Origin: Escherichia coli
GTDB lineage: Bacteria; Pseudomonadota; Gammaproteobacteria; Enterobacterales; Enterobacteriaceae
DNA: 64,000 nucleotides
Direction: 5' to 3' (one strand)
Assembly (NCBI RefSeq): GCF_003334355.1
Contig: NZ_QOWP01000024.1
Shown in pieces: positions 51,401 through 54,400 of this stretch. The stretch's first letter is position 1; each line of letters opens with the position of its first letter. Position numbers: made by a program.

Positions 51401-54400
51401 GCTCACTGGTGACCTATTTTCCAGAATCGAATCACATGCTAACACTTGATAACCACGATCCATTAAGTGGCATTCCTGGCTATAAAAGTATTCCGGTTGA
51501 ATTAGAACCATCAAATTAATGCCTCTTCTCATTTCTTCTGCTGTCATCCGCACAGCAGAAGAATCCCTCATTGACTATTATCGCGCAATTTGCTCACATG
51601 GATTAAATTAAACTACATACTATAAGATATAAACTTCTGCCTACAGCTGTAAGAAACTCCGTTCAGTACTGAAGCGCCAGTCCTATTTCCTCTTTTCTCC
51701 GGCCTGTTATATTAAGCATACTGATTAACGATGCTTAACGTTATTCGCTTAATAAACATATTTGAAATGCATGCGACCACAGTGAAAAACAAAATCACGC
51801 AAAGAGACAACTATAAAGAAATCATGTCTGCAATTGTGGTTGTCTTATTACTGACCCTTACGTTGATAGCCATTTTTTCGGCAATTGATCAGCTGGGCAT
51901 TTCAGAAATGGGTCGCATTGCAAGAGATCTTACACATTTCATTATCAATAGTTTGCAAGACTGAAAATAAACAGCAAATTATAAATATGAAATGTTAAAA
52001 AAGTATCGATAAAAACTTTATTGTTTTAAGGAGATAAAATGTCGCTCGTTTGTTCTGTTATATTTATTCATCATGCCTTCAACGCTAACATTTTAGATAA
52101 AGATTACGCCTTCTCTGACGGCGAGATCCTGATGGTAGATAACGCTGTTCGTACGCATTTTGAACCTTATGAGCGGCATTTTAAAGAAATCGGATTTAAT
52201 GAAAATACCATTAAAAAATATCTACAATGCACTAACATCCAGACAGTGACGGTGCCTGTTCCTGCGAAGTTTTTACGTGCTTCAAATGTACCGACTGGAT
52301 TGCTTAATGAAATGATTGCTTATCTCAACTCGGAAGAACGCAATCATCATAATTTTTCAGAACTTTTGCTTTTTTCTTGCCTGTCTATATTTGCCGCATG
52401 CAAAGGTTTCATTACACTATTAACTAACGGTGTGCTATCCGTTTCCGGGAAAGTGAGAAATATTGTCAACATGAAGCTGGCGCACCCATGGAAGCTGAAA
52501 GATATTTGTGACTGCCTGTACATCAGTGAAAGCCTGTTGAAGAAAAAACTAAAGCAAGAGCAAACGACATTCTCACAGATTCTATTAGATGCCAGAATGC
52601 AGCACGCAAAAAATTTGATACGCGTAGAAGGTTCAGTCAATAAAATTGCCGAACAATGTGGTTATGCCAGTACATCTTATTTTATTTATGCGTTCCGCAA
52701 ACATTTCGGCAACAGTCCGAAGAGAGTTTCTAAGGAGTATCGTTGTCAAAGGCACACGGGTATGAACACGGGCAACACGATGAATGCTTTAGCTATTTGA
52801 TTATTTGCTAACGAGTAGTCAACCACACACGCTACGTAAGAATTAAATGGGGCAGCCATTCCCTGCCCCGCGTTGTTTTTAGGCGATATATTTATTGAAA
52901 TAAATAAGTGACATTCATCACATATTTATGCATTTGCATAACCTGTTGCATGATTATTTATGATCTCAATTCGGTATTTTGTCAGCAAAATACAATAATT
53001 TATTAAATATCAATATATTAGTTGTTTATCGGCGAGAAATTACTTAGTAGAACAGAAAGTAATGTCAACGCTTTATGGACTGTTATTTCCCTTTTTTTAG
53101 CTAAATCTGCTATCTCTTTATGTGACTAACTTCACTTACATCCACTTATTTCTCTTCGTAAAATTACTTTGGAATTAAGTACAATAAGAAGAGGAACATT
53201 TATGAAGTCTGCATTAAAGAAAAGTGTCGTAAGTACCTCGATATCTTTGATACTGGCATCTGGTATGGCTGCATTTGCTGCTCATGCGGCAGATGATGTA
53301 AAGCTGAAAGCAACCAAAACAAACGTTGCTTTCTCAGACTTTACGCCGACAGAATACAGTACCAAAGGAAAGCCAAATATTATCGTACTGACCATGGATG
53401 ATCTTGGTTATGGACAACTTCCTTTTGATAAGGGATCTTTTGACCCAAAAACAATGGAAAATCGTGAAGTTGTCGATACCTACAAAATAGGGATAGATAA
53501 AGCCATTGAAGCTGCACAAAAATCAACGCCGACGCTCCTTTCATTAATGGATGAAGGCGTACGTTTTACTAACGGCTATGTGGCACACGGTGTTTCCGGC
53601 CCCTCCCGCGCCGCAATAATGACCGGTCGAGCTCCCGCCCGCTTTGGTGTCTATTCCAATACCGATGCTCAGGATGGTATTCCGCTAACAGAAACTTTCT
53701 TGCCTGAATTATTCCAGAATCATGGTTATTACACTGCAGCAGTAGGTAAATGGCACTTGTCAAAAATCAGTAATGTGCCGGTACCGGAAGATAAACAAAC
53801 ACGTGACTATCATGACAACTTCACCACATTTTCTGCGGAAGAATGGCAACCGCAAAACCGTGGCTTTGATTACTTTATGGGATTCCACGCTGCAGGAACG
53901 GCATATTACAACTCCCCTTCACTGTTCAAAAATCGTGAACGTGTCCCCGCAAAAGGTTATATCAGCGATCAGTTAACCGATGAGGCAATTGGCGTTGTTG
54001 ATCGTGCCAAAACACTTGACCAGCCTTTTATGCTTTACCTGGCTTATAATGCTCCGCACCTGCCAAATGATAATCCTGCACCGGATCAATATCAGAAGCA
54101 ATTTAATACCGGTAGTCAAACGGCAGATAACTACTACGCTTCCGTTTATTCTGTTGATCAGGGTGTAAAACGCATTCTCGAACAACTGAAGAAAAACGGA
54201 CAGTATGACAATACAATTATTCTCTTTACCTCCGATAATGGTGCGGTTATCGATGGTCCTCTGCCGCTGAACGGGGCGCAAAAAGGCTATAAGAGTCAGA
54301 CCTATCCTGGCGGTACTCACACCCCAATGTTTATGTGGTGGAAAGGAAAACTTCAACCCGGTAATTATGACAAGCTGATTTCCGCAATGGATTTCTACCC

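What the first reader, a model, noticed from the sequence alone, without database searches (positions are those of the whole stretch)
51640..51656. Second copy of the EvgA-box-like motif upstream of safA-ydeO
CCTACA-gc-TGTAAGAAA sits about 110 bp upstream of the safA start; see the paired observation at 48981-48997. Two acid-resistance transcription units in a row carry the same element, consistent with co-regulation.
Basis: partly seen in the sequence, partly recalled or inferred. Interest (0 to 1): 0.3.

Follow-up and report, generated by a model that had tools for sequence, protein, structure and literature searches.

The report
Known EvgA operator of safA-ydeO promoter
The motif is real and is the already-documented binding site through which the acid-sensing regulator EvgA switches on the E. 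coli safA-ydeO acid-resistance operon, so the finding is correct but ordinary.

Summary
The window is E. coli chromosome (…ydeQ, ydeP, safA, ydeO, ydeN…gadB). CCTACAGCTGTAAGAAA is at 51640-51656, 110 nt before the safA ATG (51767), and CCTACACCTGTAAGAAA is at 48981-48997, upstream of ydeP. These are the only two matches in 64 kb, where 0.07 are expected by chance.

Both lie inside full 18-bp inverted repeats (51638-51655 and 48979-48996). Each matches the EvgA box TTCYTACA-NN-TGTARGAA with one mismatch. I found the same 18-mer upstream of emrK/evgA, frc, yfdX and yegR in MG1655.

I compared eight diverse E. coli strains and one divergent Escherichia lineage. Of 247 intergenic columns, 100 vary. 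Only the outermost of the 16 half-site positions varies, and the central spacer does vary (p=0.002).

Held papers state that EvgA binds the safA-ydeO promoter directly and activates it on acid shift, and that PhoP and YdeO repress it.

One modest addition: the ydeP and safA promoters match for about 100 bp beyond the box (57% identity in fixed register). The shared stretch includes a conserved AGTCYTATTT block near -35 and a TGnTAnnTT extended -10. Whether that block is a further EvgA contact is untested.

The parts
51638..51655 (+). 18-bp inverted repeat TGCCTACA-GC-TGTAAGAA, the EvgA box of the safA-ydeO promoter.
   Evidence: One mismatch to TTCYTACANNTGTARGAA. Positions 51639-51646 and 51648-51661 are invariant in 9 Escherichia sequences; only 51638 and the spacer base 51647 vary.
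48979..48996 (+). Paired 18-bp EvgA box ATCCTACA-CC-TGTAAGAA upstream of ydeP.
   Evidence: One mismatch to the consensus. Within E. coli, variation is confined to the spacer and the second (outer) left-half position, T48980, which is G in K-12. The divergent lineage L013 has ...CCTACG....
51679..51688 (+). Conserved block AGTCCTATTT, 24-33 nt after the box, at about -41 to -32 of the predicted promoter. Possible extra activator or RNA polymerase contact (inferred).
   Evidence: Invariant in all 9 sequences, within the invariant run 51678-51689. Present at the same offset in ydeP (AGTCTTATTT), emrK (AGTCCTCTGT) and yegR (AATCCTATTC).
51705..51713 (+). Predicted extended -10 element TGtTATATT. 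The predicted start is near 51719-51721, which places the box centre near -73 (inferred, not mapped).
   Evidence: TG and TATATT are conserved in all 9 sequences while the middle base varies. ydeP has TGtTAATTT at the same offset from its box. The consensus scan finds no canonical -35/-10 pair.
51767..51964 (+). safA, encoding the 65-aa membrane connector that activates PhoQ.
   Evidence: Translation and RefSeq annotation.
52039..52800 (+). ydeO, encoding an AraC-family acid-resistance activator; second gene of the operon.
   Evidence: ORF list and annotation. Operon status comes from bioRxiv 10.64898/2026.05.06.723403 and PMC9496106.
49240..51519 (+). ydeP, the upstream EvgA-activated transcription unit.
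   Evidence: ORF list and annotation.
51533..51563 (+). Stable hairpin 14 nt after the ydeP stop codon. It probably marks the end of the ydeP unit. It has no T-run, so it is not a canonical intrinsic terminator.
   Evidence: RNA fold -17.5 kcal/mol, z = -4.7. The stem is conserved in all strains and in L013. The terminator scan does not call it.

Best explanation
The element is the operator for the response regulator EvgA (NarL/FixJ family) at the safA-ydeO promoter. On mild acidification the sensor EvgS phosphorylates EvgA. An EvgA dimer then binds the 18-bp inverted repeat at 51638-51655, one subunit per TTCYTACA half-site. The box lies a fixed ~52 nt upstream of an extended -10 element (TGnTATATT), in a promoter with no recognisable -35. 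From there EvgA recruits or stabilises RNA polymerase and turns on safA-ydeO. An almost identical promoter module, 2.66 kb upstream, drives ydeP in the same way. SafA then activates PhoQ/PhoP, and YdeO activates gadE and other acid-resistance genes. PhoP and YdeO feed back to repress the promoter. What the literature shows: direct EvgA binding, EvgA-dependent induction, and PhoP/YdeO repression. What I showed here: the motif, its rarity, its recurrence across the regulon, and its selective conservation. What I infer: the exact -10, the transcription start, the ~-73 position, and the way RNA polymerase is contacted.
For: The motif and the full 18-mer are the only matches in 64 kb, and both sit upstream of EvgA-induced genes in the same orientation. 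The gene identities are confirmed. The same 18-mer, with 0-2 mismatches, lies upstream of emrK/evgA, frc, yfdX and yegR in MG1655. In the 9-sequence footprint, 100 of 247 intergenic columns vary but only 1 of 16 half-site positions does, and the spacer varies (Fisher p=0.002; alignments). The box-to--10 spacing is identical in ydeP and safA and within about 2 nt in four other promoters. evgA is present in 5399 of 5426 complete E. coli genomes and the safA upstream region in 5374. Literature: EvgA binds the safA-ydeO promoter directly (PMC9496106, citing Itou 2009, reference checked). The promoter is activated by EvgA after a pH drop and repressed by YdeO and PhoP (PMC5619816; bioRxiv 10.64898/2026.05.06.723403). 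An EvgA site is found in all direct targets (PMC4283999).
Against: I ran no binding or expression experiment. The primary papers that define the box and the footprints were not held (Masuda & Church 2003; Itou et al. 2009). The consensus string is therefore quoted from my own memory and corroborated only by my regulon scan. The left half-site is imperfect (TGCCTACA). The transcription start is predicted, not mapped. Because the ydeP and safA promoters look like copies of one module, their shared motif alone is weaker evidence than two independent occurrences would be.
Confidence: 0.93

Rival explanations
1. The 18-bp box is only the high-affinity anchor of a larger composite operator. Further EvgA subunits, or an RNA polymerase subunit, would contact the conserved AGTCYTATTT block next to the -35 position, as the homologue BvgA does by lining up several dimers down to -35 at Bordetella promoters. 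This refines the best explanation rather than replacing it.
For: In the register fixed by the box, the 100 nt after it are 57% identical between ydeP and safA, against 27±4 expected (0 of 5000 shuffles). CAGTCCTATTTC is invariant in 9 sequences while its flanks drift. TC.TATT recurs at the same offset in emrK and yegR. Its core TCCTA equals the EvgA half-site core and lies 42 bp (about 4 helical turns) from the left half-site (and direct reading).
Against: Only a single half-site-like core is present, with no partner half-site. frc and yfdX carry a different block (CTCTCTGATT) at that offset. The pentamer TCYTA is common, at 1.7 per kb. Similarity between ydeP and safA could simply reflect duplication of one promoter. 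Published footprints could not be consulted.
Confidence: 0.2
2. The two motifs are similar only because the promoter region was duplicated, and the sequence has no regulatory role of its own.
For: The two upstream regions align without gaps for about 120 bp, as expected for paralogous copies.
Against: The same inverted repeat occurs in promoters that are otherwise unrelated: frc, yfdX, yegR and emrK. The half-sites are selectively conserved while the spacer and flanks change. The literature reports direct binding and EvgA-dependent activation.
Confidence: 0.03
3. The repeat is bound by a different LuxR/NarL-type regulator of the acid network, such as RcsB or GadE, or it is the site of PhoP or YdeO repression rather than EvgA activation.
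For: The half-site cores TTCCTA/TAAGAA resemble those I recall for the RcsAB box. PhoP and YdeO are known to repress this promoter.
Against: The half-sites face the opposite way and are spaced differently from the RcsAB box as I recall it (read). PhoP-box-like matches are weak (3 mismatches or more), and the better ones fall elsewhere, at 51722-51738 and 51742-51769. The only one overlapping the box (51642-51658, minus strand) has 4 mismatches. The motif tracks the EvgA regulon, not the Rcs, GadE or PhoP regulons.
Confidence: 0.03

Closest known systems
EvgA box of the E. coli EvgS/EvgA regulon (ydeP, safA-ydeO, emrKY, yfdX, frc, yegR). As I recall, it was defined by Masuda & Church 2003 and Itou et al. 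2009, with earlier work on emrKY by Kato et al. 2000.
   Same: It is the same 18-bp inverted repeat, upstream of the same gene, in the same species. This is that site itself, in a strain whose safA upstream region differs from K-12 at about 4% of positions.
   Different: Nothing of substance differs. This strain has T rather than C at 51662 just outside the box, and the box is identical to K-12's.
BvgA-activated promoters of Bordetella (fhaB, ptx). BvgA is the closest homologue of EvgA. My knowledge of these promoters is from memory.
   Same: The regulator is NarL/FixJ-type. The half-site is similar (TTTCCTA-like). The primary inverted repeat lies well upstream of a promoter with a poor -35.
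   Different: At BvgA promoters several dimers are known to fill the gap down to -35. For EvgA at safA this is only a hypothesis, raised by the conserved AGTCYTATTT block.
RcsAB / RcsB box (recalled as TaAGaatatTCctA).
   Same: The hexamer cores are similar (TAAGAA / TTCCTA), and the regulator is of the LuxR/FixJ family.
   Different: The order and spacing of the half-sites are opposite: here it is TTCCTA-CANNTG-TAAGAA. The motif distribution follows the EvgA regulon.

Membership tests
EvgA box (operator of the EvgS/EvgA regulon) | An 18-bp inverted repeat matching TTCYTACA-NN-TGTARGAA. | tested here: met
   51638-51655 is TGCCTACAGCTGTAAGAA, with 1 mismatch. It is one of only two sites in 64 kb with 3 or fewer mismatches. 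The consensus string is recalled from memory and corroborated.
EvgA box (operator of the EvgS/EvgA regulon) | Lies in the promoter region of an operon induced by EvgA. | tested here: met
   It ends 111 nt upstream of the safA ATG, in the ydeP-safA intergenic region. safA-ydeO is reported as EvgA-induced.
EvgA box (operator of the EvgS/EvgA regulon) | The same motif recurs upstream of the other direct EvgA targets. | tested here: met
   Matches were found in MG1655 for emrK/evgA (2 mismatches), frc (0), yfdX (1 and 3) and yegR (1), and in the window for ydeP (1). No match with 3 or fewer mismatches lies upstream of gadE; the only L004 hit is inside mdtE.
EvgA box (operator of the EvgS/EvgA regulon) | Purifying selection on the half-sites but not on the spacer in orthologous promoters. 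| tested here: met
   1 of 16 half-site positions varies, against 98 of 229 other intergenic positions, and 1 of 2 spacer positions varies (Fisher p=0.002).
EvgA box (operator of the EvgS/EvgA regulon) | Direct binding by EvgA (EMSA or DNase I footprint). | not testable with these tools
   [quoted passage not shown] 2009). The primary paper is not held.
EvgA box (operator of the EvgS/EvgA regulon) | Expression depends on EvgA/EvgS and on the motif. | not testable with these tools
   EvgA dependence of the promoter is reported (PMC5619816; bioRxiv 2026; PMC4222967). I could not consult data on motif mutants.
EvgA box (operator of the EvgS/EvgA regulon) | The cognate regulator is present in the same genome. 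| tested here: inconclusive
   evgA is not within the window. It is present in 5399 of 5426 complete E. coli genomes, so it is very likely present in the source strain.
BvgA-type multi-dimer activated promoter | Additional regulator sites fill the gap between the primary inverted repeat and -35. | tested here: inconclusive
   A conserved half-site-like block sits at 51679-51688, but the gap holds no second full repeat. Footprinting is needed.
RcsAB box | A 14-bp TAAGAA-N2-TTCCTA arrangement (recalled consensus). | tested here: not met
   The half-sites are in the opposite order and separated by 6 bp (CANNTG).

The most novel reading that the evidence does not exclude
EvgA-dependent promoters may share a fixed architecture that extends beyond the 18-bp box. 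A conserved (A)GTCYTATT element sits 24-33 nt downstream of the box, at the -35 position, followed by an extended -10. This element would be a second, single EvgA half-site, or an EvgA-dependent RNA polymerase contact, needed for activation. That would make EvgA work like its Bordetella homologue BvgA. It would also mean the ydeP and safA promoters are duplicated copies of one ~120-bp module.
Probability: 0.2. Interest if true: 0.3.

Novelty: already known. Interest (0 to 1): 0.1.

Why it matters
The site is the entry point of the EvgA→YdeO→GadE acid-resistance cascade and of the SafA link from EvgS/EvgA to PhoQ/PhoP. Those pathways matter for stomach passage and virulence of E. coli and Shigella. 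The site has already been characterised, so confirming it only shows that a sequence-only reader can recover a real operator. The one small new angle is the ~100-bp colinear similarity of the two promoters and the conserved -35-proximal block, which could guide promoter dissection.

Tried and rejected
- **Primary papers.** Eguchi 2007, Eguchi 2011, Ma 2004 and Masuda & Church 2002 are not held.
- **Full-text searches.** Searches for the consensus string or for the actual site sequences found nothing relevant.
- **Promoter and terminator scan.** The sigma-70/terminator consensus scan of 51500-52100 found nothing. The -10 and the start are therefore my own inference from cross-promoter and cross-strain conservation.
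- **Gapped local alignment.** Applied only to the regions downstream of the boxes, it was not significant (score 21 against 17.4±2.5). The box-anchored, fixed-register comparison was significant.
- **Scan of 100,044 species genomes.** The pattern CCTACANNTGTAAGAAAMTCCG returned four loci. Three are E. coli-like DNA, and one is a chance hit inside a Desulfosporosinus ORF. It therefore gave only one useful divergent orthologue (L013).
- **Second full EvgA box.** I looked between the box and -35 and found none. The safA-only palindrome TTCAGTACTGAA does not fit the consensus.
- **PhoP boxes.** Only weak matches were found.
- **Identity of the window.** I assumed the window was strain PSS-12 throughout. 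It is not, because IS content differs. The coordinates do coincide over 45400-55503.

Full report
**What is at the coordinates.** The window reads cctacagctgtaagaaa at 51640-51656 and cctacacctgtaagaaa at 48981-48997. A search for CCTACANNTGTAAGAAA, allowing two mismatches on both strands, finds only these two sites in the 64 kb. Shuffles expect 0.07.

The stretch 48900-52100 is 100% identical to E. coli strain PSS-12 and is present in 5390 of 5426 complete E. coli genomes. It is annotated ydeQ, ydeP, safA, ydeO. safA runs from 51767 to 51964 and translates to the 65-aa SafA. ydeP is 49240-51519 and ydeO is 52039-52800.

It is the 18-mer at 51638-51655 (TGCCTACA-GC-TGTAAGAA), with its twin at 48979-48996 (ATCCTACA-CC-TGTAAGAA). 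Each has one mismatch to TTCYTACA-NN-TGTARGAA. These are the only sites in the window with three or fewer mismatches.

**Is it the EvgA box?** I quote the consensus from memory of Masuda & Church 2003 and Itou et al. 2009, which the library does not hold. I therefore tested it independently. I fetched three MG1655 regions that contain other reported EvgA targets and scanned them. The results were:

| Location | Mismatches to the 18-mer |
|---|---|
| emrK-evgA intergenic region | 2 |
| upstream of frc | 0 |
| upstream of yfdX (two sites) | 1 and 3 |
| upstream of yegR | 1 |
| inside mdtE (stray hit) | 2 |
| upstream of gadE | no match with 3 or fewer |

The motif therefore tracks the EvgA regulon.

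**Conservation.** The safA upstream region is unusually polymorphic within E. coli. About half of the genomes are only 90-95% identical to the window over these 247 bp. I fetched seven strains spread across that range.

A pattern scan of 100,044 species genomes also gave one divergent Escherichia lineage, L013. It is 84% identical over ydeP-ydeO.

In the nine-sequence alignment, 100 of 247 intergenic columns vary. Only one of the 16 half-site positions varies: 51638, the outermost base, which is not itself the box's mismatch to the consensus (that is G at 51639, and it is invariant). One of the two spacer bases varies (Fisher one-sided p=0.002).

The ydeP box behaves the same way. Its changes fall in the spacer and in the second (outer) left-half position, T48980, which is G in K-12. 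Fixed half-sites with a free spacer are what a dimeric helix-turn-helix operator should show.

**Literature.**
[quoted passage not shown] 2009.
- PMC5619816 states that the promoter is activated by EvgA after a pH drop and repressed by YdeO and PhoP.
- A 2026 preprint uses PsafA as an EvgS/EvgA reporter.
- PMC4283999 says an EvgA binding site is found in all genes known to be directly regulated by EvgA.

**How it most likely works.** Phospho-EvgA, a NarL/FixJ-type regulator, binds the inverted repeat as a dimer. Exactly 52 nt downstream of the box, both promoters carry a conserved TGnTAnnTT. In safA it is TGtTATATT at 51705-51713, and in ydeP it is TGtTAATTT.

In the divergent lineage the TG and the TATATT are kept while the middle base changes. 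This fits an extended -10. No canonical -35/-10 pair exists, as expected for an activator-dependent promoter.

The transcription start would then be near 51719-51721 and the box centre near -73. These positions are inferred, not mapped.

A stable hairpin lies 14 nt after the ydeP stop codon (51533-51563; -17.5 kcal/mol; z -4.7). It is conserved. Together with the separate promoter, it supports two transcription units. It lacks a T-run, so some read-through from ydeP cannot be excluded. One paper does write 'ydeP-safA-ydeO operon'.

**Beyond the motif.** Anchored on the box, the next 100 nt of the two promoters are 57% identical without gaps. The expectation is 27±4, and 0 of 5000 shuffles reach the observed value.

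Within that module, CAGTCCTATTTC (51678-51689) is invariant in all nine sequences. Related TC.TATT blocks occur at the same offset in emrK and yegR, whereas frc and yfdX share a different block.

The core TCCTA equals the EvgA half-site core and lies 42 bp from the left half-site. This raises the possibility of a further EvgA contact near -35, as I recall for BvgA.

The evidence for that is thin:
- there is only a single half-site;
- the pentamer is common, at 1.7 per kb;
- duplication of one promoter could explain the ydeP/safA similarity.

I give it about 0.2.

**Rivals.**
- A functionless duplication remnant is contradicted by the motif's presence in unrelated promoters and by its selective conservation.
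- A site for RcsB or GadE does not fit the half-site arrangement or the regulon distribution.
- A site for PhoP or YdeO is also unlikely, because the PhoP-box-like matches are weak and the better ones fall elsewhere. The only one overlapping the box (51642-51658, minus strand) has 4 mismatches.

**Verdict.** The feature is the documented EvgA operator of safA-ydeO. Novelty: already known. Interest: low.

Noticed in passing
window 48979-49096 vs 51638-51755: The ydeP and safA promoters are colinear copies for about 100 bp beyond the EvgA box. Identity is 57% in fixed register against 27% expected. The shared stretch includes the extended -10 and the start of the leader (GATGCTTA.C.TTAT.CG). This suggests one promoter module was duplicated.
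   Followed up: partly
window 51533-51563; L013 (reverse complement) equivalent: The hairpin after the ydeP stop codon keeps an identical 12-bp stem in the divergent Escherichia lineage. The 7-nt loop, however, is the reverse complement (CATCCGC vs ACGGATG). That is a loop 'flip', as produced by recombination between the stem arms.
   Followed up: partly
window 51520-51766: The ydeP-safA intergenic region is unusually polymorphic within E. coli: 2775 of 5376 records are only 90-95% identical to the window. In the divergent lineage L013 the ydeP-ydeO block is 84% identical, while the flanking DNA is 92% identical.
   Followed up: no
L012 (E. coli SFE8) 3001-3801: This is a natural knockout. An IS1 sits about 50 bp after the ydeP stop codon. 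The safA promoter, safA and ydeO are gone, replaced by fim genes. About 50 of 5426 genomes lack the safA upstream region.
   Followed up: no
L015 (MAG labelled Candidatus Nanosynbacter) and L016 (uncultured bacterium UMGS1713): Both contigs are 98-98.7% identical to this E. coli window, L015 over 12.8 kb. They are almost certainly E. coli DNA mis-binned into these metagenome-assembled genomes.
   Followed up: partly
window 51722-51738 and 51742-51769: There are weak PhoP-box-like sequences (3 mismatches) just downstream of the predicted start and over the safA ribosome-binding region. The first lies in a block conserved in the divergent lineage (ACTGATTAACGATGC.TAACG). They are candidate sites for the reported PhoP or YdeO repression.
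   Followed up: no
window 51622-51631: ATAAGATATA, about 7-16 nt upstream of the EvgA box, is invariant in all nine sequences although its surroundings are highly variable. It contains a TAAGA half-site core. Its function is unknown.
   Followed up: no
window 6533-6746 (+): This is the only Rfam gathering-score match in the window: STnc560, an Hfq-binding sRNA (282 bits). By the annotation of a near-identical strain it lies near mgtS/mgtT.
   Followed up: no
window 63681-64000: The 5' end of gadB (glutamate decarboxylase) lies at the window edge. It is a downstream target of the EvgA-YdeO-GadE cascade, about 12 kb from the EvgA boxes.
   Followed up: no
window ~6956, ~45400 and 55503-57120: The window is not strain PSS-12 throughout. 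It lacks that strain's IS5 and IS3 insertions, and it carries 1.6 kb of different sequence where PSS-12 has an IS5 between the ydeM and yddA remnants.
   Followed up: partly
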